This document shows, one piece after another, positions 19,812-55,637 of a stretch of DNA of 64,000 bases; position 1 is the stretch's first letter, and every line of letters starts with the position of its first letter. Origin of the DNA: a virus (Duplodnaviria > Caudoviricetes); the IMG/VR virus record IMGVR_UViG_2846802666_000001, positions 1,549 to 65,548 of that record, one strand, 5' to 3'. A model generated the notes under the pieces. It was not told the DNA's origin, made no database searches, and saw only the letters and a list, made by a program, of their open reading frames with translations. Made by a program: the position numbers and the translations under genes.

Positions 19812-20095
19812 TGGCGGCTCTCCAGAATTTTCGCGTACATGCTGGGGCAGGGCAGTGTGATGCTGCTGCCGAAGCGGCGGATGACGACGGTGGTGAAATC
19901 AAACCTTGCCTGTTGCCAGGTGTTGCCGTTGATCGGCGCGACCAGGCCAAGCTCCTTGCATCGCGTCGTGACGCGGCTGAAGCTAGCGCCGTAGTGGTCT
20001 GCGATCTGGTTCCGGCCCATGCCGCGCTGAACGCAGCGTGCCAGCATGACGGGTGACGGCAATTTGCTGCCGCCGCGCTTATCGGTGTGCCGCAT
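19802..20095 (-). CDS. Hypothetical HTH protein
   Basis: AAGGAG RBS; GMGRNQIADHYGASFSRV. Confidence 0.55.
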   Translation of the reverse strand: MRHTDKRGGSKLPSPVMLARCVQRGMGRNQIADHYGASFSRVTTRCKELGLVAPINGNTWQQARFDFTTVVIRRFGSSITLPCPSMYAKILESRQCR

Positions 20096-21089
20096 GATGG
20101 ACACTCCTTTCGTGGACATTGAGGGATTTGAGAAGATTGCGGCTGTCCGCCCACTTGGCGTGACCGACCCACGCGGCAAGGAATTTCTCCAGCCGCTGGT
20201 GCTCGCCGCCGGCACGATAGGCGCGGATTTTGCGCTTTGCCCGCGCAACACTGTCACGGCGCAGCAGCTTGTGGGTGGGCCAGATGCGGTAACCGACGAA
20301 GTTAGCGCCACGGCTGACGGGTTGGATGCTCCATTTGGAGAACCTGAGGCCCAGCCGCTCGCGTGACAGCTCCTCGATCGAGGCGCGGACCTTGCGCAGA
20401 TGCTCCGACGATTGCCCGAGAACCACGATATCGTCCATGTAGCGATACCAGTAGCGCTCGCCGAGTTCCTGTTGCAGGTGCCGGTCCACCACGCCGCCGT
20501 AAATGTTGGCGAAGATCTGCGACAGTAGGTTGCCGATCGGCAGGCCGATGCCATCACGCGGCAGCATGGTCTCAATCAGGCGCAGCGTGGCGCGGCAAGA
20601 AATCTTCGCTTCTATCAACCGCCACAGCGCGCCGTGCTCGATGCTGGCGAAGTAGCGGGAAAAATCCGTCTTGAGGATATAGAGCGGTTCTGCGTCGTGC
20701 GTCAGCCGCCGCATATCGGCCTGCAATGCCGTTGCAGCTGCATGTGTTCCCTTGCCCGGACGGCAGGCAAAGGTGCGCGGCAACAGCGTCGCCTGAAATA
20801 TCGGCTCGATGACGGCACACAATGCATGCTGCGCCACGCGGTCCTCAAATGGCAGAGCCGATATCATCCGCTCCTTCGGATCGAAGATCTTGAAATTATG
20901 CGGCTGGCCGGGACGATATGTGCCGTCGCGCATGGCCTGCGACAGATCCTCCAGATTGAGGATCGAGAACTCATTGAACTCCAGAAAGCCCGTCGTCAGG
21001 CGCTTGCCAAGGGTGGTGCGCCTGAAGGCGTGACGCATGTTGGCGTCTGCCGTGATCTTTCCGATAAGGTTGCGGTATTTCTTTCCCAT
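20079..21089 (-). CDS. DGR reverse transcriptase
   Basis: GLPIGNLLSQIFAN (DGR-type SQ motif), YRYMDD and FVGYRI; about 336 aa, no maturase or RNase H domain. Confidence 0.95.
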   Translation of the reverse strand: MGKKYRNLIGKITADANMRHAFRRTTLGKRLTTGFLEFNEFSILNLEDLSQAMRDGTYRPGQPHNFKIFDPKERMISALPFEDRVAQHALCAVIEPIFQATLLPRTFACRPGKGTHAAATALQADMRRLTHDAEPLYILKTDFSRYFASIEHGALWRLIEAKISCRATLRLIETMLPRDGIGLPIGNLLSQIFANIYGGVVDRHLQQELGERYWYRYMDDIVVLGQSSEHLRKVRASIEELSRERLGLRFSKWSIQPVSRGANFVGYRIWPTHKLLRRDSVARAKRKIRAYRAGGEHQRLEKFLAAWVGHAKWADSRNLLKSLNVHERSVHHAAHR

Positions 21090-21281
21090 GATAATCGCTC
21101 CGGATTGCCGGTCGCGGGTTTCGACGGCGTTGCCGCTACTCCCCGCTTTACCGGACCCTGTCATGTGTTCGCCGAAGCCGGACGATCGGGCCGACCACCC
21201 TGTCAGCTGGGCGTAAACCGCCGTGCCGACCGTGGAAGATGACCGGCGTGGCCGTGGCTCGCGCCGAGTCGTGAATGGATC

Positions 21282-21402
21282 GTCGCTCGCGCCGCGCGCC
21301 CCGATGTTCTCGTTCGAGTTCTCGGGCCAGTAGTCCAAGTTCGCGTACCGGGAGCCGGCGTTCTCGCCGTTGATCCAGGAGCCGCCAAAGATGGACGGAC
21401 GC
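21282..21402 (-). repeat. DGR template repeat (TR), 121 bp
   Basis: Lies between avd and RT; AAC-rich; differs from both VRs almost only at TR adenines. Confidence 0.96.
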
Positions 21403-21409
21403 AACAGCA

Positions 21410-21787
21410 TCATGACCCCGACCGCCCGTTGCCTTTTGCCGATCTGATCCACCCGCCGAGCATCGATCCCGTTTCAGCGATGTGGCGCAGTGCCACCTTG
21501 TGCTGGTGATGGGAAAGGAATTTCAGTTTCGGATCGGAGGCAAAGCGCAACCAGAAGCGCAGCGTTGCCAGGTTGGCGTCTGCTGCGTAGAGCTTTGAGG
21601 CCTGTTTCGACTTCGCTGCCTGATAAAGAAAACCGACCTGGTCAAACAACAATCCGATCAGCCGGTCCCGCAGCACGCCATGGCTGCGAGGGCATTTCTG
21701 GAAGATCGGATAGAGGTAGGATACGGCTTTCTCGAATTTCTCGACGATCGCCAGATCCTGCGGATTTACATATTCATCTCGTGTCAT
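21410..21787 (-). CDS. avd: DGR accessory variability determinant (four-helix bundle)
   Basis: 125 aa basic helical protein, KLYAADANLATLRFWLR...ETGSMLGGWI, directly upstream of TR. Confidence 0.9.
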   Translation of the reverse strand: MTRDEYVNPQDLAIVEKFEKAVSYLYPIFQKCPRSHGVLRDRLIGLLFDQVGFLYQAAKSKQASKLYAADANLATLRFWLRFASDPKLKFLSHHQHKVALRHIAETGSMLGGWIRSAKGNGRSGS

Positions 21788-21811: not shown

Positions 21812-21833
21812 GACCCGCGCTTCCGCGCGTGTC
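21812..21833 (-). other. DGR target-recognition hairpin after VR1
   Basis: GAC-A-CGCGC-GGAA-GCGCG-G-GTC on the coding strand. Confidence 0.8.
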
Positions 21834-22770
21834 AGGCATGGTTCAGGTGGTCGCTCGCGCCGCGCGCCCCGAAGTCCTCGAACGAGAACTCGGGCCAGTA
21901 GCCCAAGTCCGCGTACCGGGAGCCGGCGTCCTCGCCGCTGAGCCAGGAGCCGCCAAAGATGGACGGACGCGGGTTATCCGGATCGCCGTCCGTGCCCCAC
22001 TGCCACATGGTGCCGGTGATATCGAACAGGCCCCACTTGCTGATGAAGTTGATGGCGTTCTCATCAAGCGCGCCCGTCACGGTCGGCTCGCTGTCACGGG
22101 AGGCGCGTTCCTTCACGCCATAGGCGGCGGCGAAGAATTCTTCCGCGCCGAGAAGGCGCTTGCCGTGACCTGCGTAGATTTCCACCGCCGTCGCATAGTC
22201 GAGCTTCCTGTATCGGCTCTGGCCGCCCAACTTCATCGGCAAGTCGCGGCCGTCGGCGATGATCGCCCTGGCGCGGCTGGCGCCCTGTTCGTGGTGGTCG
22301 GCGTCCAGAAGATAGATATCCGCCCAGAACAGTTTTCCGCCCAAGGTCTCGACCAGCGCCATGCCGCGCGGATCTGCGCAGGCGGGGCGGAAGCCGATAT
22401 CCCAGATGGAATAAGGGTTGATTGCAGGCGTGCTGTCGCCACCGTCACGGGAACCCGCATTGCCGCCCGGTGCAAAATGAAAGCCGCCGAAAAACTTCTC
22501 TGCTGTGGGCTTGCTGTCCAGCAGTTCGGCGACCGGAAACCCGTCATCGTCGATGCCGACGCCATAATCACGGCCCGGCACAAGCTCGTCGAACAGGACG
22601 GGAGTATCTTTGTCGAAGAAATGGGGGCGCTCACTGGTAGTGATCATGGTGCCCGCCTTGATGATAAGGTCGAGACGACCGGATTTTGCAAGCACCGGGG
22701 CAGATGCCACGGGTCCAACACGCTGGATGGAAATGCCGCCAAGGGTATTTTCGGCTGTTGCTGTCATCAT
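21832..22770 (-). CDS. DGR target 1, Mtd-like C-type-lectin-fold protein
   Basis: GGFHFAPG, INPYSIWDIGFRP, DPRGM, WADIYLL and FGARGASDHL resemble Bordetella BPP-1 Mtd; C-terminal VR. Confidence 0.92.
   Translation of the reverse strand: MMTATAENTLGGISIQRVGPVASAPVLAKSGRLDLIIKAGTMITTSERPHFFDKDTPVLFDELVPGRDYGVGIDDDGFPVAELLDSKPTAEKFFGGFHFAPGGNAGSRDGGDSTPAINPYSIWDIGFRPACADPRGMALVETLGGKLFWADIYLLDADHHEQGASRARAIIADGRDLPMKLGGQSRYRKLDYATAVEIYAGHGKRLLGAEEFFAAAYGVKERASRDSEPTVTGALDENAINFISKWGLFDITGTMWQWGTDGDPDNPRPSIFGGSWLSGEDAGSRYADLGYWPEFSFEDFGARGASDHLNHA
21850..21970 (-). repeat. Variable repeat VR1
   Basis: 11 mismatches to TR, all at TR adenines. Confidence 0.96.
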
Positions 22771-22797
22771 AAGAATCCTGATTGAGAGGAGGAAAGA

Positions 22798-22819
22798 GAC
22801 CCGCGCTTTCGCGCGCGTC
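22798..22819 (-). other. DGR target-recognition hairpin after VR2
   Basis: GAC-G-CGCGC-GAAA-GCGCG-G-GTC on the coding strand. Confidence 0.8.
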
Positions 22820-23693
22820 AGGCAGGCGTCAGGTGGTCGCTCGCGCCGCGCGCCCCGATGCTCCCGACCGAGAGCCCGGGCCCGTAGCCCAAGTTCGCGC
22901 ACCGGGAGCCGGCGTCCCCGCCGCTGAACCAGGAGCCGCCAAAGAGGGACGGACGCGGATCGTCGATGTCGCCGTCTGTTCCCCAGACCCAGAGATTGCC
23001 GGTCGCCTGCATGAGGCCGTATAGGCTGGTGCGGGCGGCATCGAGGCCGGTTGTACGTGGGCGATTGTCGGCGCTGGAGCGTTCAGTCACGCCGTGGGCG
23101 GCGGTGCGGAACTCGTCATAGGTCAGCAGGCGCTTGCCGTGACCTTCAAGGATGGATTTCGCGGTCTTGTAATCGAGCAAGTCCAGTGTGCTGCCGGTGG
23201 CTGGCGTCACACCAAGGCGGCTGGTGCCGTGCACGGCGTGATCGACGCCGAGAAGATAGATATCGACCCAGACGATGTTTCCGGCAATGACGCGCACCAT
23301 GCCGCGAGGATCGGGGCAGGCGGGGCGATACTCGATATCCCAGAGCGAATGCGGGTTGATGGCGGGATTGCTGTCGCCGCCCTTGCGTTCAGTCGCATTG
23401 CCGCCGGGAGCGAAGTGGAAACCGGCAAAGAAATCCGCTTTCAGGGGGTTGTCGTTGGCGACGGTGGCAAACAGATCGCCCATGGCATTGATGCCGACAG
23501 CATAATCGCGACCGGGAACCAGCTCATCGAGCGCAATCGCCGTTTCGCGGTCATAGGAATACGTGCGGTCACCGATCTCGACCAGCGAACCGGCCTTGAT
23601 GGAGATCGAGGTCGGGCCGGTAGCGATCAGGATCGGCGCGCTGGGGCTTGGATTGTGAATGCTGATTGTCTGTGGTTCGGCAGTCGTTGTCAT
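22818..23693 (-). CDS. DGR target 2, Mtd-like C-type-lectin-fold protein
   Basis: Paralog of target 1; SIKAGSLVEI, GFHFAPG, SLWDIEYRP and IGARGASDHL. Confidence 0.92.
   Translation of the reverse strand: MTTTAEPQTISIHNPSPSAPILIATGPTSISIKAGSLVEIGDRTYSYDRETAIALDELVPGRDYAVGINAMGDLFATVANDNPLKADFFAGFHFAPGGNATERKGGDSNPAINPHSLWDIEYRPACPDPRGMVRVIAGNIVWVDIYLLGVDHAVHGTSRLGVTPATGSTLDLLDYKTAKSILEGHGKRLLTYDEFRTAAHGVTERSSADNRPRTTGLDAARTSLYGLMQATGNLWVWGTDGDIDDPRPSLFGGSWFSGGDAGSRCANLGYGPGLSVGSIGARGASDHLTPA
22836..22956 (-). repeat. Variable repeat VR2
   Basis: 15 mismatches to TR, 14 at TR adenines. Confidence 0.95.
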
Positions 23694-23726: not shown

Positions 23727-23939
23727 TCAGACGCGTGCCGCAGCGGCGTGCATGCGTTCGATTTCGGAGAGACGGGTGGCGCAGAGAGCCACGCCGCCAA
23801 GGCAACCGAGCAGAAGCACGGCTGTGACGCAGGCGAGGAAAAAGCGGCCATAGGGAACGGCGGCTTCTTTGCGGAAGGTGCCGAGGTCATGGCGGGTCTG
23901 CGGGATCATTGGGGAAATATGGATCAAAGCTGCCTCCAT
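23727..23939 (-). CDS. Small membrane protein
   Basis: Hydrophobic FFLACVTAVLLLGCLGGVAL; start uncertain. Confidence 0.5.
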   Translation of the reverse strand: MEAALIHISPMIPQTRHDLGTFRKEAAVPYGRFFLACVTAVLLLGCLGGVALCATRLSEIERMHAAAARV

Positions 23940-23994: not shown

Positions 23995-24177
23995 TCAGGC
24001 GGCTTCAAGAAGCGCGTCGTCGTTCGCCTTCATGCGTGCCTTCTCTTGGAGGCGGTCGATATCTGCGTTGGGGAAGTAAAGGTTCAGCTGTTCACGGGTG
24101 CAGCCTTCGCCAAAGCGGCGCATCGCGGCGGCCATGGCATCGATCTTTTCATTGTCGTTCATCGCACTGACGTTCAT
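23995..24177 (-). CDS. Small hypothetical protein, first gene of the leftward early operon
   Basis: GGAG RBS before ATG 24177. Confidence 0.6.
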   Translation of the reverse strand: MNVSAMNDNEKIDAMAAAMRRFGEGCTREQLNLYFPNADIDRLQEKARMKANDDALLEAA

Positions 24178-24283
24178 GTCGGTCTCCGTCCGTTGAAAGG
24201 GAGACCGGACGGCATCGAGGCGAGGGGGTAGGGTGCCGTCCGGTCTTTTCCAAGCCATGTGGTTTGCTCGGATGGACGGAATT

Positions 24284-24332
24284 TCGCGATAATCGCAAAA
24301 TAAGTCAAGAAGTATTTTCGCGATTATCGCGA
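24284..24332 (-). promoter_or_regulatory. pL/OL-like promoter with repressor operators
   Basis: TCGCGATAATCGCAA at 24284 and an inverted copy near 24317 around a minus-strand TTGACT; same motif recurs between cI and cro. Confidence 0.75.
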
Positions 24333-24458: not shown

Positions 24459-24725
24459 ATGAAGCGGCCGCCAATCGATCACCCGGATGCGATGCGATTA
24501 ATTGTGGAGCTTTCCAACCTCTATGTGGCCTGCGACGACTGCGGCCATTCTCGGATTCTTGGTCTGGATAACCTGCGAAAAGCGAGCGAGCTTGGGGTGC
24601 ATAACTACACGCAATTATGCCGGAAGATCAGGTGCAGCGAGTGCCCAAAAACAATTCCGGCATTTAGGAATTTGACGATCCGGCCGACGTGGCGCGCCGA
24701 ATACTCTATTCACAGCAGCGCGTGA
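24459..24725 (+). CDS. Small zinc-ribbon protein, putatively SOS-inducible
   Basis: CDDC...CSEC; GAGG RBS; LexA box upstream. Confidence 0.75.
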   Translation: MKRPPIDHPDAMRLIVELSNLYVACDDCGHSRILGLDNLRKASELGVHNYTQLCRKIRCSECPKTIPAFRNLTIRPTWRAEYSIHSSA

Positions 24726-25441
24726 AATACGACCTTGTGAATGCTGAAGACTTTGTCTGTCGGGAATTCCAATTCGTGTGTTTCACCAGATCCTGGATTG
24801 TACTGATAAAGACGCAAAACGTCGCCGCTTTGGCTCTCGAACCGCTTAATGTAGCTCGACACTTCGTCATCTTCGAAATCACCAAGGATCTGAACGATTA
24901 CGTCGTCGCCTTTGCGGTAGCGGGCATGGGGATTAGCCCACGCTGTCTCGCCATGATAGAAACGCGGCTCGCCTGAAGTTCCTTGTATTTGAACCGCGTA
25001 AGCCCCTTCGACGCCTTCCAAGCCAGGCGGACAAAAAACCCGCGCAATGTCTTGGCCGTTCATGATGAAGCGCCCGTTCGGACCCGCAGAAATCTGGCCC
25101 CTTAGAGGAATGGAGACGTCGCCAGGAAAGGCTTGCCAGCGAGGGGGGAAGCTTGCGTTTGGTTTCGGTCGTGGCGCTGAAGGCTGCGTTGGAAGATCGT
25201 TCGATGGGTTGAGCCAGCTGGCCATTTCCTCATAGCCGGGTGGAAGCTCCTGAAAGAACCTGGCGATACCTTCTATCTCTTGGAGGCTGATTTTCCGCGG
25301 CTCTTTAGTGTTTGGCTTCATCCTGCTCAGCATCGTCGAGGAGACGCCGATCGTCTCTGCCAATTCGCTGGCCGTTCCGCGCGGAGAATTCTTGAGCTTC
25401 TGGTCGAGCCAGTTCTTAATTTCGTACTGAGGATCTTGCAT
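24710..25441 (-). CDS. CI-like repressor (HTH plus peptidase S24)
   Basis: N-terminal HTH; YAVQIQGTSGEPRFYHGE and YIKRF S24 motifs; divergent from cro. Confidence 0.9.
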   Translation of the reverse strand: MQDPQYEIKNWLDQKLKNSPRGTASELAETIGVSSTMLSRMKPNTKEPRKISLQEIEGIARFFQELPPGYEEMASWLNPSNDLPTQPSAPRPKPNASFPPRWQAFPGDVSIPLRGQISAGPNGRFIMNGQDIARVFCPPGLEGVEGAYAVQIQGTSGEPRFYHGETAWANPHARYRKGDDVIVQILGDFEDDEVSSYIKRFESQSGDVLRLYQYNPGSGETHELEFPTDKVFSIHKVVFHALL

Positions 25442-25452: not shown

Positions 25453-25535
25453 TCGCGTATTTCGCAAAAAAATCTATCGCGATAATCGCAACAAATAGAT
25501 TGACATTAAATCGCGATAATCGCAAAGATCGCGAT
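25453..25535. promoter_or_regulatory. OR/pR region
   Basis: TCGCGATAATCGCAA at 25477 and 25511, variant at 25453, TTGACA at 25500. Confidence 0.8.
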
Positions 25536-25781
25536 ATGAGCGAAAACCATCTAGAGCCAGCGAAGTCTGTGATCGCCAAAATTGGCATCGAGAAAGTGTC
25601 TGCCGTAACCGGCAAGCACATATCTCGGGTCTATCGTTGGATGTATCCAAAGGAGCGCGGCGGTACTGGCGGCATCATCCCGCAGGCCGATGCTTTCGTT
25701 TTGCTTGCCCACGCACGGTCGCAGGGTATCGAGCTTTCGCCCGATGATTTCTTTCGAATTTCTCAGGAGGCCGCAGAATGA
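25536..25781 (+). CDS. Cro-like repressor
   Basis: IGIEKVSAVTGKHISRVYRWM...GGTGGIIP. Confidence 0.8.
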   Translation: MSENHLEPAKSVIAKIGIEKVSAVTGKHISRVYRWMYPKERGGTGGIIPQADAFVLLAHARSQGIELSPDDFFRISQEAAE

Positions 25782-25798: not shown

Positions 25799-25874
25799 CG
25801 CAGCGTAGGGAAGCGGTCATCCCGCGTGGTTCATACCCACGATGTCGCAGGTTCGAATCCTGCCGCTGCAACCA
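25799..25874 (+). tRNA. tRNA-Met(CAT), initiator-like
   Basis: Acceptor CGCAGCG/CGCTGCA (C1:A72 mismatch), D arm GGGA/TCCC, anticodon arm CGTGG-TTCATAC-CCACG, T arm GCAGG-TTCGAAT-CCTGC, ACCA end. Confidence 0.88.
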
Positions 25875-26671: not shown

Positions 26672-27595
26672 ATGGTATTGCGAAAGGTAGAATTCTCGAA
26701 AATTGACCGGCCTGCCGAAGTTTCCGCCGGTTCAGCTCCAATCCTTCAATGGATTGATATCGATCAGCTGGTGATCGATGAAGATTACCAGCGTGACCTG
26801 AAGCTTCAGAACTGGAAGGCGATCCGCCGTATCGCGGCGAATTTTCGTTGGTCGATGTTCTCTCCCGTGTTCGTCTCCCCGGTGGAGGGGGGGGCGTACG
26901 CAATAATCGACGGTCAGCACCGCACCCACGCTGCAGCGATATGCGGTTTTTCGCAGGTTCCTTGTCAGATCGTCCAGATGAACAAGACGGAACAGGCCGC
27001 TGCATTCGCCGCGGTGAATGGCGTCGTAACGGCAGTCACCGTGTGGCAGCTCCTGAAGGCCGCACTTGCGGCTGGCGAGCAGTGGGCGGTGAACGCCCAG
27101 CGGATCGCAGCGGATGGTGGTTGCCGGCTGATGACGTCCAACGGCTCGACCCTTTCGAAGCTGCCCGGCGATATCTACGGCGTGAAGGGCTTCCTTTCCG
27201 TCATCGAGACACGACCACGCGAGACTATTGTGACCGCGCTGAAGGTCTTGATGAAGGCCGAAGGTTACAACGACAATCGCGAGGTCTGGGATTCGGCATT
27301 GTTGATGCCGTTGCTGCTGGCATTGGCAGAGCGACCGCCAGCGCTGGCGAATCCGGGTTTTGTCGGTGCCCTGGAAAAGTTCGATATCTGGGACCTCGTA
27401 GACCGAGATGCTGCCGAACGCCGCGCCGCGCTTCGACTTGGCCGCAAGCATCCTCCGAAATCAGAAACCCTTCGGGCCGGCATCCTCACGTGGATCGACG
27501 AGACGTTTCCTGCACGCATCGCATTGCCTCCATCCGAGAAACTATCGCGTCAGGAAGCGATGGTGCGCATTGGCGCCATCGGAGGTAGCCAGTGA
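26672..27595 (+). CDS. ParB-like N-terminal domain protein
   Basis: LVIDEDYQR...YAIIDGQHRTHAA. Confidence 0.75.
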   Translation: MVLRKVEFSKIDRPAEVSAGSAPILQWIDIDQLVIDEDYQRDLKLQNWKAIRRIAANFRWSMFSPVFVSPVEGGAYAIIDGQHRTHAAAICGFSQVPCQIVQMNKTEQAAAFAAVNGVVTAVTVWQLLKAALAAGEQWAVNAQRIAADGGCRLMTSNGSTLSKLPGDIYGVKGFLSVIETRPRETIVTALKVLMKAEGYNDNREVWDSALLMPLLLALAERPPALANPGFVGALEKFDIWDLVDRDAAERRAALRLGRKHPPKSETLRAGILTWIDETFPARIALPPSEKLSRQEAMVRIGAIGGSQ

Positions 27596-27759
27596 CCCTC
27601 TGCATGGCCGAAACCAGCCGCCCCAAACTCGTCAAGGAAGCCCGCGCCGCGCGGGTTCTGGCGCTTTGGCGGATTGGCCGTTCCACCCATGAAATTTCCA
27701 CAACGCTCGGCCTTGCTGAATGCGAGGTCTGCCGCATTATCGAGGAGGCAGAACAATGA
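27592..27759 (+). CDS. Small HTH-like protein
   Basis: 55-aa ORF overlapping both neighbours (LWRIGRSTHEISTTLGL). Confidence 0.5.
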   Translation: MTLCMAETSRPKLVKEARAARVLALWRIGRSTHEISTTLGLAECEVCRIIEEAEQ

Positions 27760-27983
27760 GTGCAGCCGCTTCTCTCTTTGCAGTTCCACTTGCGGATCGT
27801 GATCGCGGTTTTCTGCGGCACGTCTCTCAGGCTGACGGCTGGCGCGAGATCCGCCACGGCGAAATGCCATCCGCCGTTCAGTGCATGCGCGCCGGTTACG
27901 TTCGCCTGTCGAATGACAAGCGGCAGGCAATCATCACCAGCAGCGGGCAGACTTACCTCCGCCAGTTGAGAGGGGTGCACTGA
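27756..27983 (+). CDS. Hypothetical protein
   Basis: GAGGAGG RBS; overlaps neighbours. Confidence 0.55.
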   Translation: MSAAASLFAVPLADRDRGFLRHVSQADGWREIRHGEMPSAVQCMRAGYVRLSNDKRQAIITSSGQTYLRQLRGVH

Positions 27984-28159
27984 TGGAACTGTTCGATGCA
28001 CTTCCAGCCCCGCTCCGCACGGCGATAAATGACGCCGGGTTCGAGTTTGTACCGCGCTTCGCTGCTCGTCTTCTGGCGCGCGGCGTATCGGTAGATCGCG
28101 CCGCCGAGATCATCCGCGAAACCGACCTGCGCCTGATGCGCAAAGGCTGTGCGGCATGA
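27983..28159 (+). CDS. Small hypothetical protein
   Basis: MELFDALPAPLRTAIN; TGATG and ATGA overlaps. Confidence 0.55.
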   Translation: MELFDALPAPLRTAINDAGFEFVPRFAARLLARGVSVDRAAEIIRETDLRLMRKGCAA

Positions 28160-29598
28160 CGGTGCAATCTCTCCAGATGCCGAAGAATGCCGGCCTGAAC
28201 ATCATTACATCCGCGCTGCGCGATGGCGAATACCGCTGCCAGACCTCGCAGGAGGTGCGCACGGCCTGCGCGGCAATGGCCCACCGCTATCTCACGCGTG
28301 ACCCGAAGGACGGCAATCTGTTCCGTCCGGGTGATCGCGCAGCAGCCGTCATCGAGCGCGCGAAAAATGAAGGCAAATTGCCGGAAGAAAACATAAGCCG
28401 GATCGTAGTGACGGGGCCGTACCAGCTTCTGCCGCCGCTCTCGGATGATGATTTCAAGGCGCTTTATGATGACATTGCCGCTCACGGCGTAAAGGTGCCG
28501 GTTGAATATGACGAGGCTGGCGAAATTCTCGACGGCCACCACCGTGTCGCCATCTGCAAGATGCTCGACATCACCGATTGGCCCCGGTTCATCCGCAAGC
28601 AGCTGACGGAAGAAGGTAAACGGTCTTTTGCAAGGTCGCTGAATTTTGCCCGGCGCCATCTTTCCGGCGCGCAGCGGCAGGCAGTTATTCAGGAGCACCT
28701 GAAGGATGCGCCGACCGTATCCAACCGCGCCATTGCCGCGCAGCTCGGTGTTGATCACAAGACCGTATCGGCGGCGCGCAAACGCATGGTCGATGGTGGG
28801 GAAATTCCCCACCATGCGACAATCGTGGGCCGTGACGGCGTTTCCCAACCGGCGGTAAAGCCGATCCGCACCATGTTCCTGCCGGAGCCGGCGAATTTCA
28901 AGGAGCTGACGAAGGTCGCCAAGATCAAGCGGGCCGAGGATCAGAAGATCCGGCACGCCGTCCGCACCGATCTCGCCGTCCAGATCGCAGCCCGCCAGAA
29001 CGTGGCGCCATGGTGGAAGGGCGTCGGGCAGGATGAGGGCAGGGCGTTCCCGATCATCTACGTTGATCCGCCGTGGCGTTTCAAAACCTATTCGGAAGTG
29101 ACCGGCGGCGAAAAGAGCGCCGAGAACCACTATCCGACAATGTCTCTTGAAGAGATAATGGATCTCGGTTGCCCTGGCGCTCACAACTCGGCGGTGCTCA
29201 TGTGGGTGACGGATCTTTCGAATGGCGTGAAAACGCTGGAGCGATGGGGCTACACCTACAAAAGCTTCTGGGGCTGGAAGAAGATTTACCCCGGCGACCA
29301 GACCGGAACCGGCTACTGGAGCTTCGATAATCTCGAACTTCTGCTGATCGGCACGCGCGGCGACTTCCCGGCGCCAATACCGGGAACGCAGCCGATCAAG
29401 TGCACCGACCACGCAGTCGGTCGCCACAGCGAAAAGCCGGTCTGGTTCGCCGAACAGATCGACCGGCTTTATCCGACCATGCCCAAACTCGAAATGTTCC
29501 AGCGCCGCGAAAGCCTCGCGGATGGCGACGTGCGCCTGAATGGAAAGTGGGAGTTTTGGGGAAATCAGGCAGGCACACCGGAAGGCGGTGCGGAATGA
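28156..29598 (+). CDS. ParB-HTH-MT-A70 (N6-adenine methyltransferase) fusion
   Basis: ILDGHHRV, SNRAIAAQLGVDHKTV, IIYVDPPW, HSEKP and LEMFQR. Confidence 0.88.
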   Translation: MTVQSLQMPKNAGLNIITSALRDGEYRCQTSQEVRTACAAMAHRYLTRDPKDGNLFRPGDRAAAVIERAKNEGKLPEENISRIVVTGPYQLLPPLSDDDFKALYDDIAAHGVKVPVEYDEAGEILDGHHRVAICKMLDITDWPRFIRKQLTEEGKRSFARSLNFARRHLSGAQRQAVIQEHLKDAPTVSNRAIAAQLGVDHKTVSAARKRMVDGGEIPHHATIVGRDGVSQPAVKPIRTMFLPEPANFKELTKVAKIKRAEDQKIRHAVRTDLAVQIAARQNVAPWWKGVGQDEGRAFPIIYVDPPWRFKTYSEVTGGEKSAENHYPTMSLEEIMDLGCPGAHNSAVLMWVTDLSNGVKTLERWGYTYKSFWGWKKIYPGDQTGTGYWSFDNLELLLIGTRGDFPAPIPGTQPIKCTDHAVGRHSEKPVWFAEQIDRLYPTMPKLEMFQRRESLADGDVRLNGKWEFWGNQAGTPEGGAE

Positions 29599-30656
29599 TG
29601 ATTACTCGCTCACCTGAAATAGACGCCCTTATCGCCGATGACGCGCCGGTCGCGATTGGTGTTTCGGGCGGCAAAGACAGCCAAGCCGCCGCACTGGCAA
29701 CATTCGCTTATCTCGATTCTGTCGGCCACAAGGGGCCGCGCATCCTTATCCATGCCGACCTCGGCTCAGTGGAATGGGACGACAGCTTCCGGATCTGTGA
29801 GGAACTCGCTGAGTACCTGGAGTGTGACCTCGTCGTGGTTCGACGCAAAGCCGGTGGCCTCATGGAGCGTTGGGAAAGCCGGTGGCTATCGAGCAAAACT
29901 CGTTACGAGATGCTCAGCACGGTGACCCTTGTTCCCTGCTGGTCAACGCCGGCCATGCGGTTCTGCACTTCGGAGCAGAAGACACACGTAATCATGGCCG
30001 AACTTAAGGGGCGGTTTAAAGGTCAGAAGATCATCAACGTGACCGGCGTTCGTCGGGAAGAGAGCGCGACACGATCGCGCATGTCTGTCGCAGACAGTGA
30101 TGCGGCCGGGCAGGTGTGGACGTGGCGCCCGATCATCGACCTCACGCTTGATCAGGTGTTTGCCATGGTCGACGCCTCCGGCCTGCACCCCCATCCCGCC
30201 TACCGGATTTACGGTATGGGCCGGGTGTCTTGCCGCTTCTGCATCATGTCCAGCATGCCCGACATGCTGGCCGCCAGTGCACAGCCTGAGAGCCACGATC
30301 TATACCGGCAGATGGTGCAGCTGGAGATCGACAGCAGCTTTGCATTTCAGGGTGCGCGCTGGCTCGGCGACGTCGCCCCTCAGTTGCTCCCCCCAGAGAT
30401 GATTAAGGGTCTCGCCCTCGCCAAGAACAAGGCCGCTCTGCGTAAAGACATAGAGGCGCGGATTACAAGGCCGATGCTCTACGTAAAGGGGTGGCCGACC
30501 CGCATGTTGACCGACGACGAGGCTGCACTCATGGCCTCCGTGAGGCGACAGGTGAGCGACCTCTACGGCTTCAAATCGGATTGTCTCGACGTTCCCTCGA
30601 TCCATGAACGCTACGCGTTTCTTTTGGCCGAGAGTGCCAGAAAGGCGGCCGCATGA
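29595..30656 (+). CDS. Phosphoadenosine phosphosulfate reductase-family (PP-loop) protein
   Basis: VSGGKDS, RFCTSEQK, GVRREES and RVSCRFCIM. Confidence 0.85.
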   Translation: MMITRSPEIDALIADDAPVAIGVSGGKDSQAAALATFAYLDSVGHKGPRILIHADLGSVEWDDSFRICEELAEYLECDLVVVRRKAGGLMERWESRWLSSKTRYEMLSTVTLVPCWSTPAMRFCTSEQKTHVIMAELKGRFKGQKIINVTGVRREESATRSRMSVADSDAAGQVWTWRPIIDLTLDQVFAMVDASGLHPHPAYRIYGMGRVSCRFCIMSSMPDMLAASAQPESHDLYRQMVQLEIDSSFAFQGARWLGDVAPQLLPPEMIKGLALAKNKAALRKDIEARITRPMLYVKGWPTRMLTDDEAALMASVRRQVSDLYGFKSDCLDVPSIHERYAFLLAESARKAAA

Positions 30657-32572
30657 ACGCCTACGCTGGAAATCTCTTCGACCTTCATCATTCTGTCGCT
30701 GTGCCCGCATTGGGTCCGCATGGACCTTACATCATCGACAGTTTCGCTGGCGGCGGTGGCGCGTCGACCGGAATTGAACAGGCTCTTGGCCGTCCCCCTG
30801 ATTACGCCATCAACCACAACGCGGCCGCTTTGGCACTGCATGAGGCAAATCATCCCGAGACAGTCCATCTCTCGGAAAACGTCTACAAGATCGATCCGCT
30901 CGATCACCTGCGCGGCAAGCATATCGGCCTCGCCTGGTTCTCCCCGGATTGCAAACATTTCAGCAAGGCAAAGGGTGGCAAGCCCGTTGAACGCAACATT
31001 CGCGACCTGTGCTGGATCATTCCAGGCTGGATCGAACGCATCCAGCAGAGCGGCGGCAAGGTCGATGTCGTCATCATGGAGAACGTCGAGGAGTTTAAGG
31101 ATTACGGTCCGCTGATCCAGACCGCCAAAGGGTTGCGGCCAGATCCTGAGCGCAAGGGGCAAACTTACCAGAAATGGTGCAAGAAGCTCCGCCAACTCGG
31201 CGCGAAAATGGAAAGCCGCGAGATCCGTGGACGCGATTACGGTGCCACGACAATCCGCAAGCGCCTCTTCGTCATCATGCGTTTCGACGGCCAGCCAATT
31301 GTTTGGCCGGAGAAGACGCACGGTGCGCCCGATGATGCTGACGTTATTGCCGGACGTAAGCTTCCGTGGCCGATCATGGCAGATGAGATCGACTGGAGCC
31401 TGCCGTGTCCTTCGATCTTCGATACGTCTGCCGAGATCTGGGACAAGTTCGGGGTTAGGTCGGTGCGGCCGATCGCGGACGCTTCTCAGGCTCGCGTCGC
31501 GCGTGGATTTGATCGGTTCGTATTGAAAGCGAAGAGACCGTTTCTTGTTCAGATCGGTTACGGTGAGCGAGATGGACAGGCGCCGCGATGCATGAGCCTC
31601 GACGAGCCGCTGGGTACAGTCGTCGCCGGCGGTGTCAAGCATGCGCTGGTTTCGCCCTCTATCCAACGTTTCAACACAGGCGCGACCGGTGTTGCAATGG
31701 ATGATCAGCTCCCGACGATTACGGCAAACAGCTACATCAAGCGTCCTGGCGGCGCGGCTCCCCTTGGCCTGCTGGCTCCGGTGCTAACCTACGCTCAGCA
31801 GGGTGGCGCTTGCCGCTCCGTGGACGGACAGTCGCATACCATCACAGCCAGCAAGAAAGATCAGAATTCTGTTCTGGTCGGCTATATGGCGCAGGCCAAC
31901 AATGACAGCCGGCGCGTCGGTGGCGTCAATCCGGGCCGTCCGCTGGATGAAGCGTTGTCGACCGTGACGCAGACAGGAAGTCATCAGCAGCTGGTCTCCG
32001 CCTATATCGCGCGCGATTTCGGAACCTCGACAGGTCACAGCGTAACGGAGCCGTCCGCGACGATCATGCCGGAAGGGCAGGGCAAGAGCCGCCTCATCAT
32101 GCCGTATCTGCAATCTTACTACGGAACTGGAGACGGTGCTCGCGAGGATGATGCCTGCCGCACGATCACGACGCGAGACCGCTTCGGTCATATCGAGGCA
32201 ACGGTTGACGTTCCTCCCTTCACCGAAGCCCAGGCGGCTCGTGCGCGACAGGTTGCGGAATTCTTACGAGTGCACGGCGTTTGGGATGAGTGTGAATTTG
32301 TCACGATCGAAATCGACGGCGTCACGTTCGTCGTGGTCGACATTGGTATGCGCATGCTCTCGCCGCGCGAGCTGTTCAACGCTCAGGGCTTCCCACGTCA
32401 CTATCAGATCGAGGGGTACTTTGATCGGTCGCAGGGCGATGTGCCGGTATGGGTGCCGTTCTCGAAGGAGGTGCAGGTTTCCTGCGTGGGTAATAGTGTT
32501 TGCCCGCCCGTAGCGAAGGCGCTGGTCGCTGCCAACTGCGGCCACCTTGCAGTCACGGCGGTGGCAGCATGA
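30653..32572 (+). CDS. C5 cytosine DNA methyltransferase
   Basis: DSFAGGGG, SPDCKHFS, MENV, RKRLF and GNSVCP. Confidence 0.92.
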   Translation: MNAYAGNLFDLHHSVAVPALGPHGPYIIDSFAGGGGASTGIEQALGRPPDYAINHNAAALALHEANHPETVHLSENVYKIDPLDHLRGKHIGLAWFSPDCKHFSKAKGGKPVERNIRDLCWIIPGWIERIQQSGGKVDVVIMENVEEFKDYGPLIQTAKGLRPDPERKGQTYQKWCKKLRQLGAKMESREIRGRDYGATTIRKRLFVIMRFDGQPIVWPEKTHGAPDDADVIAGRKLPWPIMADEIDWSLPCPSIFDTSAEIWDKFGVRSVRPIADASQARVARGFDRFVLKAKRPFLVQIGYGERDGQAPRCMSLDEPLGTVVAGGVKHALVSPSIQRFNTGATGVAMDDQLPTITANSYIKRPGGAAPLGLLAPVLTYAQQGGACRSVDGQSHTITASKKDQNSVLVGYMAQANNDSRRVGGVNPGRPLDEALSTVTQTGSHQQLVSAYIARDFGTSTGHSVTEPSATIMPEGQGKSRLIMPYLQSYYGTGDGAREDDACRTITTRDRFGHIEATVDVPPFTEAQAARARQVAEFLRVHGVWDECEFVTIEIDGVTFVVVDIGMRMLSPRELFNAQGFPRHYQIEGYFDRSQGDVPVWVPFSKEVQVSCVGNSVCPPVAKALVAANCGHLAVTAVAA

Positions 32573-54164: not shown

Positions 54165-55061
54165 ATGAAATATTACGCTCCATACGGATCTACTGATCCG
54201 GATGCATCATACGTCGACAAGGATATACCCGGTGCTGTTCGCGGCTCCGCGGTTCCTGCCAAGGCTATCGAAAAACCGCAGCGTGAAATTGTGGACTTCC
54301 TGGTTAAGTCCGGTCTCGCGCCTGCTGAGGGACTTCAGTTGTCCCAGGCCGTTCAGGCTGGCAAAGTGAACTTTGCTGCCACTGCAGGGACTGGCAACGC
54401 GATTGTCGCAACCCTTGCCCCTGCTCCGGACAGTCTGTTCCTTGGACTGATCGTCAGGATCAAGATTGCGACCATCAATACCGGCCCCGCCACCATCAAT
54501 CTCAATGGATTTGGAGTGAAGCCGATAAAGACGGCGTCCGGTGACGATATAGTGGCTGGCGACCTTAAGGTGAATTCTATCATCGAATTTGCCTACGACG
54601 GCGCCAACTGGCGGATGCTCGCGACAAGCCCTCAAAGCATCGCAACCCGTGCGCTTGCGAGCGGTACTTACAGCCTTGCTGCCGGTGCGATCCCAAATTC
54701 GATTGTTAACCTCACGACTCTCGCAACAGTGCTGTTGGAGGATTTCGACAACTCAGGCTCGTTGTCTGGCGGGATATTTACAGTGCCGTACGATGGTGTG
54801 GCTCACATGTCGATCTCTCTCTATCAACCCGCTGCTTTAGTTTCCGCTGCGGGATTGGGTGTTTTGAAGAACAGCGTGTTGGTCGACAGCGTGCTGGATA
54901 ACTCTAACGCTGCGTTGGATCGTACAATTCGCATAATCTACAATCGCCTGTTCAGTGTTTCCAGGGGCGATCAGCTTCAATTTGGGGTCGCCTGTCGCAA
55001 TGCAGCCGGAACGGGGAATTCTCCTCCAATAACCGGCACGGCTACAATTATGATAATCTAG
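54165..55061 (+). CDS. Tail fibre/receptor-binding protein
   Basis: Follows gp48; GSAVPAKAIEKPQREIV N-terminus; NTGPATINLNG..KPI fibre module. Confidence 0.88.
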   Translation: MKYYAPYGSTDPDASYVDKDIPGAVRGSAVPAKAIEKPQREIVDFLVKSGLAPAEGLQLSQAVQAGKVNFAATAGTGNAIVATLAPAPDSLFLGLIVRIKIATINTGPATINLNGFGVKPIKTASGDDIVAGDLKVNSIIEFAYDGANWRMLATSPQSIATRALASGTYSLAAGAIPNSIVNLTTLATVLLEDFDNSGSLSGGIFTVPYDGVAHMSISLYQPAALVSAAGLGVLKNSVLVDSVLDNSNAALDRTIRIIYNRLFSVSRGDQLQFGVACRNAAGTGNSPPITGTATIMII

Positions 55062-55064: not shown

Positions 55065-55637
55065 ATGGAAAACATGACCATTGAGCGCATTCCTCTTTCC
55101 ATTTCGGATGTCGAGGCTGTAGGTCGACTGGTGTCGTACGGGATGGCAGATGCCTACTATGATGGGACATATCTCGTCGTAGCCAACGCCGATTTGGTGG
55201 AGAAAATAAATGCTCTGATTTCTCAGGAGGAGTGGAGAAGTCAGGATCTGGTGACGATCAAGGCCGGATATAAGGCTGCAATTGACGAGGCGGCCGAATT
55301 GACGAGGCTGCAGTACATTACGCCCGGTGTAGGGCAGGCTCTCACGTACATGCAAAAGGCGGATGAGGCTCGGCGGTATCTTTCAGCGTCCAACCCCGTC
55401 GACAGCGACTACCCGCTGTTGGCGGCTGAAGTGGGCATCACCGCTGAAAATATTGTCCGCGTTGCTGCGGTGGTAGCTGCGGCCTACAGCCAATGGCTAA
55501 AGATTGGTGCGGCAATCGAGGCTGTGCGCCTAGATGGGAAGGCTGCAATTGACGCAGCAGGATCAGAAAATGACGCAAAAGCTGCCTTCGATGCAGTGGC
55601 TTGGCCAGAGGCCAAAGTCGCCGGTCAAGCGGAGTAG
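55065..55637 (+). CDS. Probable tail fibre assembly protein
   Basis: IDEAAELTRLQYITPG...YPLLAAEVG; follows fibre. Confidence 0.7.
   Translation: MENMTIERIPLSISDVEAVGRLVSYGMADAYYDGTYLVVANADLVEKINALISQEEWRSQDLVTIKAGYKAAIDEAAELTRLQYITPGVGQALTYMQKADEARRYLSASNPVDSDYPLLAAEVGITAENIVRVAAVVAAAYSQWLKIGAAIEAVRLDGKAAIDAAGSENDAKAAFDAVAWPEAKVAGQAE

What the first reader, a model, noticed from the sequence alone, without database searches (positions are those of the whole stretch)
21832..23693. DGR targets are Mtd homologs lacking the N-terminal domain and lying in the early operon, far from tail genes
Seen: both targets (312 and 291 aa) match my recollection of the BPP-1 Mtd beta-sandwich and CLec motifs but begin where Mtd's N-terminal beta-prism ends. 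They are near the start of the repressor-controlled pL-like operon, 30 kb from and antisense to the tail module, which has its own non-variable fibre. No signal peptide is evident. Inference: these hypervariable binders may act inside the cell (anti-defence, anti-satellite or host-protein capture) rather than in tropism switching, which would be a new DGR role. Heterotrimers could add combinatorial diversity.
Basis: partly seen in the sequence, partly recalled or inferred. Interest (0 to 1): 0.82.

Follow-up and report, generated by a model that had tools for sequence, protein, structure and literature searches.

The report
Tail-less Mtd diversifier in phage early operon
A prophage carries a working mutagenic retroelement whose two hypervariable binding proteins resemble a known phage receptor-binder, but they lack its attachment domain and sit among early genes, so they may not be tail proteins.

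Summary
On the minus strand lie two paralogous targets (T1 22818-23693, 291 aa; T2 21832-22767, 311 aa), Avd, a template repeat and a reverse transcriptase. Of 26 repeat differences, 25 fall at template adenines, and each variable repeat is followed by a GRNA-loop hairpin.

Both targets are Mtd homologues (37-38% identity, model TM 0.85). They lack Mtd_N and the beta2-beta3 loop carrying Tyr322/Tyr333.

The cassette sits in the leftward early operon, between a promoter carrying the cI/cro operator motif and the integrase. The prophage spans about 14150-64905.

This is not a one-off. The short proteins form their own clade (1019 relatives at E <= 1e-10). In 58 non-duplicate loci the neighbours are integrase, repressor, cII, ParB, methylases and sliding clamp; 0 of 58 hit the structural panel. 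The cassette rides in phages with contractile and with non-contractile tails.

A non-virion, early-expressed binder is my best reading (0.45). An accessory virion receptor-binder that docks non-covalently remains a strong rival (0.33).

The idea is not wholly new: Benler 2021 described a non-structural DGR target in Quimbyvirus. No expression or virion data exist. I rate it a new variant of a known kind.

The parts
22818..23693 (-). Target 1 (T1), 291 aa, short Mtd homologue: beta-sandwich plus C-type lectin fold, no Mtd_N
22838..22957 (-). VR1, variable repeat at the 3' end of T1
   Evidence: 14 changes at TR adenines plus one T>G; hypervariable among 13 orthologues that are 85-100% identical.
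22798..22819 (-). GC-rich hairpin with GAAA loop just after VR1 (DGR target-recognition type)
   Evidence: dG -11.3 kcal/mol, 0 of 200 shuffles fold as well. Compared with the Guo 2011 passages.
21832..22767 (-). Target 2 (T2), 311 aa, paralogue of T1 (51% identity)
21852..21971 (-). VR2, variable repeat at the 3' end of T2
   Evidence: 11 changes, all at TR adenines
21812..21833 (-). GC-rich hairpin with GGAA loop just after VR2
   Evidence: dG -10.3 kcal/mol, 1 of 200 shuffles folds as well
21410..21787 (-). Avd accessory protein
   Evidence: PF22296, E 4e-28; NF033474, 117.6 bits against cutoff 80
21284..21403 (-). Template repeat (TR), 22 adenines in the 120 nt compared; no hairpin follows it
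20079..21107 (-). DGR reverse transcriptase (342 aa from the internal ATG); YMDD and SQIFAN motifs read in the translation
   Evidence: 65-93% identical RTs in the related cassettes
23727..23909 (-). Small ORF with one hydrophobic segment, ending 34 nt upstream of T1
   Evidence: residues 16-93 of the frame are 90-96% identical in L011, L041, L043 and L044; 19-aa hydropathy 2.46.
23995..24258 (-). orf87, first gene of the leftward operon (homologue in Rhizobium phage RR1-A next to its repressor)
24284..24332 (.). pL-like control region: two copies of the operator motif flanking and overlapping a cTTGACt -35-like hexamer that reads leftwards
24459..24725 (+). Small CxxC...CxxC gene convergent with the repressor gene; separates cI transcription from the left operon
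   Evidence: homologues next to cI in L024, L044, L064
24710..25441 (-). cI-like repressor (HTH plus Peptidase_S24-like)
25477..25525 (.). cI/cro intergenic operators (two exact copies) around a TTGACA hexamer
14266..15354 (-). Prophage integrase at the far end of the leftward operon
   Evidence: phrog_1, E 6e-35
14150..14168 (+). attL core, 19 nt copy of the tRNA-Phe 3' end. The same 19-mer lies 887 nt past the window end (attR).
54165..55061 (+). The prophage's own non-variable tail fibre (298 aa): N-terminal 151 aa 62% identical to the RR1-A fibre, C-terminal half unrelated
   Evidence: Only T1, T2 and the TR frame match T1 in the whole genome.
55065..55637 (+). 190-aa gene after the fibre, in the position of a fibre assembly gene (62% identical to the RR1-A neighbour)

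Best explanation
This is an active diversity-generating retroelement of a distinct 'short Mtd' clade. It is carried as an accessory block in the repressor-controlled leftward early operon of a temperate Agrobacterium-type phage.

Shown:
- The cassette has all the DGR parts.
- Its two targets keep Mtd's beta-sandwich and lectin fold, but lack the N-terminal module and the beta2-beta3 loop.
- The operon starts at a promoter carrying the same operators as cI/cro and ends at the integrase.
- The same placement recurs in dozens of related prophages with different tails.

Inferred:
- On induction or infection the left promoter fires. T1 and T2 are then made early as soluble cytoplasmic proteins, together with Avd, TR RNA and RT.
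- The RT copies TR with errors at adenines, and the cDNA replaces VR1 or VR2 in replicating phage genomes. Progeny therefore carry new binding surfaces.
- Because the proteins are expressed from the incoming genome, each variant is tested directly in the next cell it infects.
- I propose that they bind a variable host or rival-element protein early in infection (counter-defence or host takeover) rather than a surface receptor.
For: DGR parts and activity:
- Avd, RT and TR are present, with two VRs. Of 26 differences inside the repeat, 25 lie at TR adenines.
- GRNA-loop hairpins follow both VRs but not TR.
- VR codons are hypervariable among 13 orthologues that are 85-100% identical.

No attachment module:
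- Mtd_N is absent.
- Only about 16-20 residues precede the sandwich domain.
- The N-terminal part shows no similarity to any other window protein; the best E was 0.03.
- Longer relatives (511-1155 aa) are at most 49% identical, and 12 of the 120 listed carry extra Pfam domains.
- The short forms sit on one side of a branch, SH-aLRT 92.

Early-operon placement:
- The operator motif occurs at both promoters, and the two regions align with the same layout.
- There are tight gene junctions from orf87 to the RT, with the integrase at the far end.

Conservation of context:
- 0 of 58 non-duplicate loci hit the structural panel and 42 of 58 hit the early panel.
- The PHROG tallies are led by integrase, phrog_2045, ParB, cII, methylases and clamp. 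No structural family is among the 25 shown in either tally.

Tail independence:
- The window and G001 have a sheath.
- G005 has a Rivra-like terminator, major tail protein and tape measure, and no sheath match.
- No homologue of the window's fibre was found in the 5 prophages examined.

Own fibre:
- The prophage has its own fibre and assembly gene.
- Isolated relatives without the cassette exist: RR1-A and Rivra.

No signal peptide by hydropathy.

Lead only: one predicted in-frame fusion of a complete dATP/dGTP pyrophosphohydrolase domain to a short Mtd (P0026).
Against: - No expression, localisation or binding data exist. No RNA run holding this stretch was listed.
- Every experimentally studied phage DGR target that I know of is a receptor-binding protein, and these are clear homologues of one.
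- Mtd binds weakly as single trimers and relies on avidity on the virion (PMC2408619 passages). That suits a particle better than a soluble protein.
- The prophage carries an O-antigen acetylase and an SGNH esterase-like gene. These point to a surface arms race that a variable receptor-binder would serve.
- Early transcription does not prevent later assembly, and only a few dozen copies per virion would be needed.
- Promoter control is inferred from motifs only.
- The PHROG tallies list only the top 25 families, so rare structural neighbours cannot be excluded.
- The tail-type comparison rests on 6 prophages.
Confidence: 0.45

Rival explanations
1. Accessory virion receptor-binding proteins. 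T1 and T2 are made from the early operon and persist. They then dock non-covalently, by the sandwich apex or the short N-terminal strand, onto the fibre or baseplate, giving DGR-driven tropism switching as in BPP-1.
For: 37-38% identity and TM 0.85 to Mtd. PHROG 11262 is annotated 'tail protein'. In all isolated phages with Mtd homologues the gene is in a structural module: BPP-1, P12026, S-CBS3 and YPCBV-1. Surface-modifying morons in this prophage imply receptor variation. Mtd function depends on multivalent display. Two paralogous targets resemble phages with two receptor-binders.
Against: No attachment module. No shared sequence with any tail protein of the window. The cassette follows the early region, not the tail: it occurs with sheath-type and Rivra-type tails, and no common fibre homologue was found in 5 prophages. 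The genes are convergent with the late operon and behind early operators. 0 of 58 loci hit the structural panel within 10 kb.
Confidence: 0.33
2. Prophage-borne defence or exclusion. The targets are expressed in the lysogen from a leaky or separate promoter. They act as pre-diversified sensors or blockers of incoming phages, as proposed for cellular DGRs.
For: The position next to the immunity region is where lambdoid phages keep lysogen-expressed exclusion genes (established knowledge; recalled). Belalov et al. 2023 propose DGR-based defence (abstract).
Against: A convergent gene separates cI from the left operon, and the operon's promoter carries the repressor's operators. The scan found no promoter-like site between orf87 and T1, and the gap is filled by a small ORF. 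T1 and T2 hit no PADLOC family. No effector domain is present.
Confidence: 0.12
3. A selfish or decaying cassette with no benefit, tolerated in a permissive slot of the early operon.
For: The slot between orf87 and the clamp is variable. Rivra has five small ORFs there, and RR1-A lacks a cassette. Presence is sporadic: 4 of 200 other species genomes of the family at E <= 1e-30.
Against: All ORFs are intact. The VRs are diversified only at adenine-coded sites, with the scaffold residues kept. The T1-type and T2-type paralogues are both maintained across genera. 1019 relatives have conserved length.
Confidence: 0.06

Closest known systems
Bordetella phage BPP-1 tropism-switching cassette (mtd-avd-TR-brt)
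   Same: Same gene order, target(s)-Avd-TR-RT. Adenine-specific TR/VR differences, VR at the C-terminal lectin fold, and a GC hairpin with GRNA loop after VR. 37-38% protein identity and the same two C-terminal domains.
   Different: Mtd is 381 aa with Mtd_N. It follows the tail fibre gene at the end of the structural cassette. Here there are two targets of 291 and 311 aa with no Mtd_N and no beta2-beta3 loop (Tyr322/Tyr333). They lie in the early-left operon, convergent with the late genes.
Second DGR target of Quimbyvirus (gut Bacteroides phage), Benler et al. 2021, PMC8008677
   Same: A phage DGR target that lies away from the structural module, on the opposite strand, among methyltransferases and nucleic-acid enzymes. 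It was interpreted as non-structural and involved in phage-host conflict (abstract and passages).
   Different: That phage also keeps a structural-module target; here all targets are in the early operon. Host phylum, phage type and RT arrangement differ. I did not test sequence relatedness of the targets. Here the target is a plain Mtd homologue, and the pattern is shown for a whole clade.
Mtd-domain targets, category 'a' of Wu et al. 2018, PMC5758913
   Same: An Mtd-domain target with a CLec1-type VR, flanked by phage genes (passages).
   Different: That survey concluded that such DGRs diversify phage tail proteins. It did not separate a short clade or note early-operon placement in the passages I saw. 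Its Table S1 could not be opened.
Mtd fused to a tail fibre in a Vibrio cholerae kappa-like prophage (DiGReF paper, PMC3521204)
   Same: Shows that the target-avd-TR-RT block moves as a unit between phages (passages).
   Different: There the block landed in, and fused with, a tail fibre gene. Here it stands free among early genes.
Cellular DGR targets proposed as defence sensors (Belalov et al. 2023, PMC10053308)
   Same: Hypervariable lectin-fold proteins proposed to act inside cells in conflicts with invaders (abstract).
   Different: Those are host-encoded and mostly fused to signalling or effector domains. These are phage-encoded, stand-alone, and behind a phage early promoter.

Membership tests
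Diversity-generating retroelement | Reverse transcriptase of the DGR type next to a template repeat | tested here: met
   RVT_1, E 2.2e-18. YMDD and SQIFAN read in the translation. 65-93% identical RTs in the 21 genome-contig cassettes.
Diversity-generating retroelement | Avd accessory protein | tested here: met
   PF22296, E 4e-28. NF033474 equivalog, 117.6 bits against cutoff 80.
Diversity-generating retroelement | TR/VR pair differing almost only at TR adenines | tested here: met
   25 of 26 differences inside the repeat are at adenines; the TR stretch has 22 A.
Diversity-generating retroelement | GC-rich hairpin with 4-nt GRNA loop shortly after VR, absent after TR | tested here: met
   Loops GAAA and GGAA, dG -11.3 and -10.3 kcal/mol. 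The TR flank folds at z -0.65. Criteria from Guo 2011 passages. The stems are 3+5 pairs with one mismatch, at the short end of the 7-10 bp reported.
Mtd (BPP-1 major tropism determinant) family | Second (beta-sandwich) domain | tested here: met
   PF21916 above the gathering score in T1 and T2.
Mtd (BPP-1 major tropism determinant) family | C-terminal C-type lectin fold carrying the VR | tested here: met
   Model matches 1yu4/1yu0 at query TM 0.85, E 2.6e-25. VR is within residues 246-285.
Mtd (BPP-1 major tropism determinant) family | N-terminal Mtd_N domain (PF18454) | tested here: not met
   Found in BPP-1 Mtd at residues 5-41. No hit in T1 or T2. The alignment starts at Mtd residue 62.
Mtd (BPP-1 major tropism determinant) family | beta2-beta3 loop with Tyr322/Tyr333 bracing the neighbour's binding site | tested here: not met
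   A 17-18 residue gap covers Mtd 318-334 in both alignments. The role of the loop is from PMC2408619 passages.
Mtd (BPP-1 major tropism determinant) family | Gene at the end of the tail or structural module | tested here: not met
   The window cassette lies between pL and int. 0 of 58 loci hit the structural panel.
Mtd (BPP-1 major tropism determinant) family | Homotrimer displayed on tail fibre tips | not testable with these tools
No virion data.
Non-structural phage DGR target (Quimbyvirus type) | Target distal to structural genes, on the opposite strand, among nucleic-acid modification genes | tested here: met
   Neighbours are clamp, dNMP phosphatase, DUF1643 and integrase on the same strand. 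Methylases, PAPS-reductase-like and ParB-like genes lie across the immunity region.
Non-structural phage DGR target (Quimbyvirus type) | Sequence relatedness to the Quimbyvirus target | not tested
   No Quimbyvirus sequence was fetched.
Lambda-like pL early operon | Same operator at the divergent cI/cro promoters and at a second leftward promoter | tested here: met
   Exact 15-mers at 25477, 25511 and 24284, and a 1-mismatch copy at 24318. 0 of 100 shuffles reach 6 matches. Same layout around the TTGAC hexamers.
Lambda-like pL early operon | Repression in the lysogen and early firing on induction | not testable with these tools
   No RNA holder was listed.

The most novel reading that the evidence does not exclude
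Temperate Rhizobiales phages carry a phage-side 'antibody' system. Stand-alone Mtd-like lectin proteins are made early in the cytoplasm and continually re-diversified by the DGR. They neutralise whichever variable host defence or rival-element protein the next host presents, and selection acts on each incoming genome's own variant.
Probability: 0.28. Interest if true: 0.9.

Novelty: new variant of a known kind. Interest (0 to 1): 0.6.

Why it matters
Mtd is the textbook DGR target, and surveys have treated any Mtd-domain target as a tail protein (Wu 2018 passages). This work shows a large, coherent clade of Mtd homologues with three properties:
- they have lost the attachment module;
- they have moved into the early operon next to the immunity region;
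- they travel with that region across phages with different tails.

If these proteins act inside the cell, targeted hypermutation would be a phage counter-defence or takeover tool, not only a host-range tool. That would extend the single Quimbyvirus hint to a second, genetically tractable host group. If instead they do reach the virion, they would show how a receptor-binder with no fibre module docks on unrelated tails.

Either answer is reachable with ordinary induction, proteomics and deletion experiments in laboratory Agrobacterium strains.

Tried and rejected
Leads that gave nothing or could not be used:
- RNA evidence: the look-up of sequencing runs listed no RNA holder. All 5 rows hold only 0.05 of the sampled words. 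I did not lay reads and draw nothing from this.
Trimer, heterotrimer and fibre-docking questions stay open.
- Plasmids: no match to T1 at E <= 1e-10.
- PADLOC: T1, T2, Avd, orf87, orf116, the small ORF and three neighbours hit no family. The RT hits generic RT models only.
- NCBIfam has no model matching T1 or T2.
- A terminator-like hairpin at 23847-23861 lies inside the conserved small ORF. I do not read it as a terminator.
- The only promoter-like scan hit (23665-23693) overlaps the T1 start codon and is not useful.
- Upstream open-frame extensions of T1 homologues in 5 loci carry no extra Pfam domain. I read them as GC-rich open frames, not fusions.
- A third copy of the 48-nt or 25-nt tRNA-Phe repeat was not found in the genome. 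A 19-nt copy past the window end was.

Literature. Searches listed no paper on a Rhizobiales or Agrobacterium DGR, or on short Mtd targets in an early operon. Supplementary tables of Wu 2018 and Roux 2021 were closed and may list such loci. The beta-prism and beta-sandwich naming of the Mtd domains (McMahon et al. 2005) is recalled, not seen. The names I give to Pfam accessions (Collar, T7 tail fibre, PTR, DUF2793, CBM_5_12, collagen, ParBc) are also recalled.

Limits of the counts:
- ORFs in loci were called by my own script with a GC3 filter.
- The first PHROG tally used 116 same-strand ORFs of 219 found in 17 loci.
- The second used the 148 longest of 191 ORFs in 23 other loci.
- Each tally shows only the 25 commonest families.
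- The tree used 24 of the 120 listed short hits and 24 of the 120 listed long hits, picked by hand across the lists. It used the quick method, with SH-aLRT support only.
Full report
WHAT IS THERE

On the minus strand the window carries, in order:
- T1, 22818-23693, 291 aa;
- T2, 21832-22767, 311 aa (312 from the preceding ATG);
- a 125-aa Avd, 21410-21787;
- a template repeat at about 21284-21403;
- a reverse transcriptase, 20079-21107.

Pfam gives bAvd (E 4e-28) and RVT_1 (E 2.2e-18). NCBIfam gives the Avd equivalog at 117.6 bits against a cutoff of 80.

Three copies of a repeat of about 120 nt are present. Inside the repeat, VR2 differs from TR at 11 positions and VR1 at 15. Twenty-five of these 26 are TR adenines and the other is one T>G in VR1. 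The TR stretch holds 22 adenines.

Each VR is followed, over its stop codon, by a GC-rich hairpin with a GAAA or GGAA loop. Their energies are -11.3 and -10.3 kcal/mol, and 0 and 1 of 200 shuffles fold as well. The flank of TR does not fold (z -0.65). This matches the target-recognition element described for BPP-1 and other phage DGRs: GC stems, a 4-nt GRNA loop, 4-34 bp from VR (Guo 2011, PMC3240598, abstract and passages). The stems here are at the short end of that range.

Among 13 orthologues of T1 that are 85-100% identical, the scaffold is conserved and the adenine-coded VR positions are hypervariable. The element is therefore complete and has been active in nature.

THE TARGETS

Both targets hit Pfam 'Mtd second domain' above its gathering score. 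Both match PHROG 11262 over profile positions 70-393 of 393.

BLASTP to BPP-1 Mtd gives 37% and 38% identity, beginning at Mtd residues 62-63. phmmer against PDB finds only Mtd chains, 6 distinct sequences, best E 2e-45. An AlphaFold2 model of T1 built on 77 sequences (pLDDT 86, pTM 0.87; low confidence only at residues 1-4 and in the VR, 257-276) matches Mtd structures with query TM 0.82-0.86. The next hits, formylglycine-generating enzymes, are far weaker.

BPP-1 Mtd carries Mtd_N (PF18454) at residues 5-41 and the second domain at 66-169. T1 and T2 have no Mtd_N, and only 16-24 residues precede the second domain.

Both alignments have a 17-18 residue gap over Mtd 318-334, which removes Tyr322 and Tyr333. 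These residues sit on the beta2-beta3 loop, which enters the neighbouring protomer's binding site and was taken as a reason why the trimer is essential (Miller 2008, PMC2408619, passages). Two trimer-related features are thus missing. Whether the short proteins trimerise could not be tested.

T1 and T2 are 51% identical.

A crude hydropathy check finds no signal-peptide-like N-terminus. There is no basic residue in the first ten positions. The highest 12-residue hydropathy in the first 50 residues is 1.3-1.55, against 2.25-2.88 for two membrane controls from the window.

WHERE THE CASSETTE SITS

A cI-like repressor (24710-25441, minus strand; PHROG 4; Peptidase_S24-like) and a cro-position gene (25536-25781, plus strand) diverge from a 95-nt region. 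That region holds two exact copies of TCGCGATAATCGCAA around a TTGACA hexamer.

The same 15-mer occurs at 24284, and with one mismatch at 24318. These copies flank and overlap a cTTGACt hexamer that reads leftwards into orf87 (24258-23995). At up to two mismatches the window has 6 matches, and 0 of 100 shuffles reach that number. The two regions align with the same layout.

A small convergent plus-strand gene (24459-24725) lies between the repressor gene and this promoter. The left operon is therefore not a continuation of repressor transcription.

From orf87 the genes run tightly in this order: a conserved small ORF with one hydrophobic segment (ending 34 nt before T1), T1, T2, Avd, TR, RT, orf116, a sliding clamp, a dNMP phosphatase, three further ORFs, and the integrase at 14266-15354.

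The 19-mer at 14150-14168, a copy of the tRNA-Phe 3' end, recurs 887 nt past the window end. The prophage is therefore about 50.7 kb. A separate 12.5-kb island with its own integrase lies between the tRNA and the prophage.

The late genes are on the plus strand: terminase, portal, capsid, sheath, tape measure and baseplate. They end with a 298-aa fibre (54165-55061) and a 190-aa gene. The fibre's N-terminal 151 residues are 62% identical to the fibre of Rhizobium phage RR1-A, and the rest is unrelated. This is the usual pattern of a modular receptor-binder. The large ORF after it is an O-antigen acetylase, not a fibre.

In the whole genome only T1, T2 and the TR frame match T1, so the fibre is not a DGR target.

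THE CASSETTE IS AN INSERT IN A VARIABLE SLOT

The early region resembles Agrobacterium phage Rivra, a phage annotated with a major tail protein and no sheath. Rivra has five small ORFs where the cassette lies. The tail resembles RR1-A, which has the orf87 homologue next to its repressor and no cassette.

THE FAMILY

A search of 160-510-aa proteins found 1019 relatives at E <= 1e-10. Of the best 120, 115 are 287-329 aa long. Where named, they come from Agrobacterium, Rhizobium, Shinella, Mesorhizobium, Brucella anthropi/Ochrobactrum and other Hyphomicrobiales.

A search of 511-2000-aa proteins found 146 relatives. The 120 listed are at most 49% identical, and most are 34-42%. Twelve of them carry extra Pfam domains, which by my recollection of the accession names are tail-collar, T7 tail-fibre, tail-repeat, collagen and carbohydrate-binding modules, plus one Mtd_N.

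In a quick maximum-likelihood tree of 54 rows, the 26 short rows lie on one side of a branch (SH-aLRT 92). BPP-1 Mtd and 23 of the 24 long rows lie on the other side. T2-type proteins form a six-row group (99) inside the short clade.

In isolated phages every Mtd homologue found (14 records) is longer, at 349-494 aa among those I opened, and lies in a structural module.

CONTEXT ACROSS THE FAMILY

I fetched 21 loci from genome contigs and 55 from IMG/VR. After removing near-duplicates, 58 remain.
- 52 have target, Avd and RT. Of these, 36 have two targets, 15 have one and 1 has three.
- 0 of 58 hit any of 11 structural or late proteins of the window within 10 kb.
- 42 of 58 hit early proteins.
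- 12 of 58 have a window-type integrase downstream on the same strand.

Two PHROG tallies that do not depend on the window's proteins agree.
- Among 116 same-strand ORFs within 5 kb in 17 loci, the commonest families are integrase (12), phrog_2045 (10), clamp (3), SSB, repressor, NTP pyrophosphohydrolase and RusA.
- Among the 148 longest ORFs within 6 kb on either strand in 23 other loci, they are integrase (14), ParB-like (5), cII-like (5), methyltransferases, clamp (4), repressor (4) and dNMP phosphatase (3).

No head, tail or lysis family is among the 25 shown in either tally. Rarer families are not shown.

TAIL INDEPENDENCE

Of five other cassette-bearing genomes searched with the window's sheath, one (G001) has a 61% identical sheath about 15-25 kb from its cassette. 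Four have no match.

I read the next 20-40 kb beside five cassettes. G005 has Rivra-like tail terminator, major tail protein, tape measure and minor tail protein. G003, G004 and G006 have Rivra-like terminase and portal. G002 has window-like portal and capsid but no sheath match. None has a homologue of the window's fibre, its neighbour gene or orf368.

The N-terminal 130 residues of T1 and T2 resemble nothing else encoded in the window; the best E was 0.03.

FUSIONS

In the short clade, 4 of the 120 listed near-length proteins and the closest long one carry an N-terminal extension. In P0026 the extension is a complete dATP/dGTP pyrophosphohydrolase domain, positions 4-94 of 97 in the profile, 19 residues before the Mtd second domain. 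These are single predicted proteins and could be errors. I treat them as a lead and as further evidence of early-gene neighbours.

READING

Shown:
- a complete and naturally active DGR;
- targets that are Mtd homologues lacking Mtd_N and the beta2-beta3 loop;
- placement in an operator-bearing leftward operon that ends at the integrase;
- conservation of that placement in a distinct clade, across phages with different tails;
- the prophage's own ordinary fibre.

Inferred: early, repressor-controlled expression; cytoplasmic location; function.

My best reading (0.45) is that these are early-expressed soluble binders used in conflicts inside the cell. The selection logic is direct, because each incoming genome expresses its own variant.

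The main rival (0.33) is an accessory virion receptor-binder that docks without a fibre module. Homology, the avidity argument for Mtd and the surface-modifying genes of this prophage all favour it.

A lysogen-expressed defence role (0.12) fits poorly with the operators and the convergent gene. A useless cassette (0.06) fits poorly with the conservation.

COMPARISON WITH WHAT IS KNOWN

The element is a member of the DGR family by every feature I could test. It is a relative of Mtd, but it fails three of Mtd's defining features: the N-terminal domain, the beta2-beta3 loop and the structural-module position. Two more, the trimer and virion display, could not be tested.

Wu 2018 treated Mtd-domain targets as tail proteins (passages). 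Roux 2021 sorted viral targets into structural or unknown with classifiers, not by position (passages).

The idea of a non-structural phage DGR target is in print for Quimbyvirus. One of its two targets lies away from the structural genes among methyltransferases and a nuclease (Benler 2021, abstract and passages). Belalov 2023 proposed cellular DGRs as defence tools (abstract).

My searches listed nothing on this Rhizobiales clade. Supplementary tables were closed and may list such loci.

VERDICT

I rate it a new variant of a known kind, with interest 0.6.

Noticed in passing
window 1541-14167: A separate island of about 12.5 kb is integrated at tRNA-Phe (1541-1616). It has its own integrase (1690-2772) and is bracketed by a 50-nt direct repeat (1569-1618 and 14118-14167). 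GC falls to 0.50 at 4-8 kb. The DGR prophage starts right after it, so two elements sit in tandem at one tRNA site.
   Followed up: partly
window 23727-23909 (-): A small ORF with one strongly hydrophobic segment ends 34 nt upstream of T1. Its frame is 90-96% identical in four Agrobacterium-type cassettes, while the neighbouring orf87 is only 44-89% identical there. It may belong to the cassette.
   Followed up: partly
window 24459-24725 (+): A small gene with CxxC...CxxC spacing converges on the repressor gene. It is conserved next to cI in L024, L044 and L064. Function unknown.
   Followed up: no
window 25799-25874 (+): tRNA-Met lies just after the cro-position gene. Rivra (tRNA-Leu) and RR1-A (tRNA-Met) carry a tRNA at the same place.
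   Followed up: no
window 55685-57589 (+): An O-antigen acetylase (phrog_6705, E 5.8e-152) lies between the fibre assembly-position gene and the lysis genes. It is a likely lysogenic-conversion moron.
   Followed up: no
window 61978-63366 (+): A 462-aa protein near attR hits PHROG 'tail fiber protein' (E 3.7e-28). It is 36% identical to an SGNH/GDSL hydrolase of Agrobacterium phage OLIVR5. It may be a surface-polysaccharide esterase encoded outside the tail module but on the late strand.
   Followed up: partly
proteins P0026, P0040, P0060, P0070, P0121: Predicted in-frame fusions of short Mtd proteins to N-terminal extensions. In P0026 the extension is a complete dATP/dGTP pyrophosphohydrolase domain. 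The source of P0060 names it an NTP pyrophosphatase. P0121 carries PF02195 (recalled as ParB-like). These are either real fusions or calling errors.
   Followed up: partly
window 22838-22957, VR1: One non-adenine change (T>G, turning a TGG codon into GGG) lies among 14 adenine-site changes. It is either an ordinary point mutation or a rare non-adenine RT error.
   Followed up: no
window 59899-59913 (+): A sixth, 2-mismatch copy of the operator motif lies inside the lysis region. It may be chance.
   Followed up: no
window 26672-32572 (+): The rightward early operon carries a ParB-like gene, a 480-aa methyltransferase, a PAPS-reductase-like gene and a 639-aa C5-cytosine methylase. This dense DNA-modification set recurs beside the cassettes in many related loci.
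   Followed up: partly
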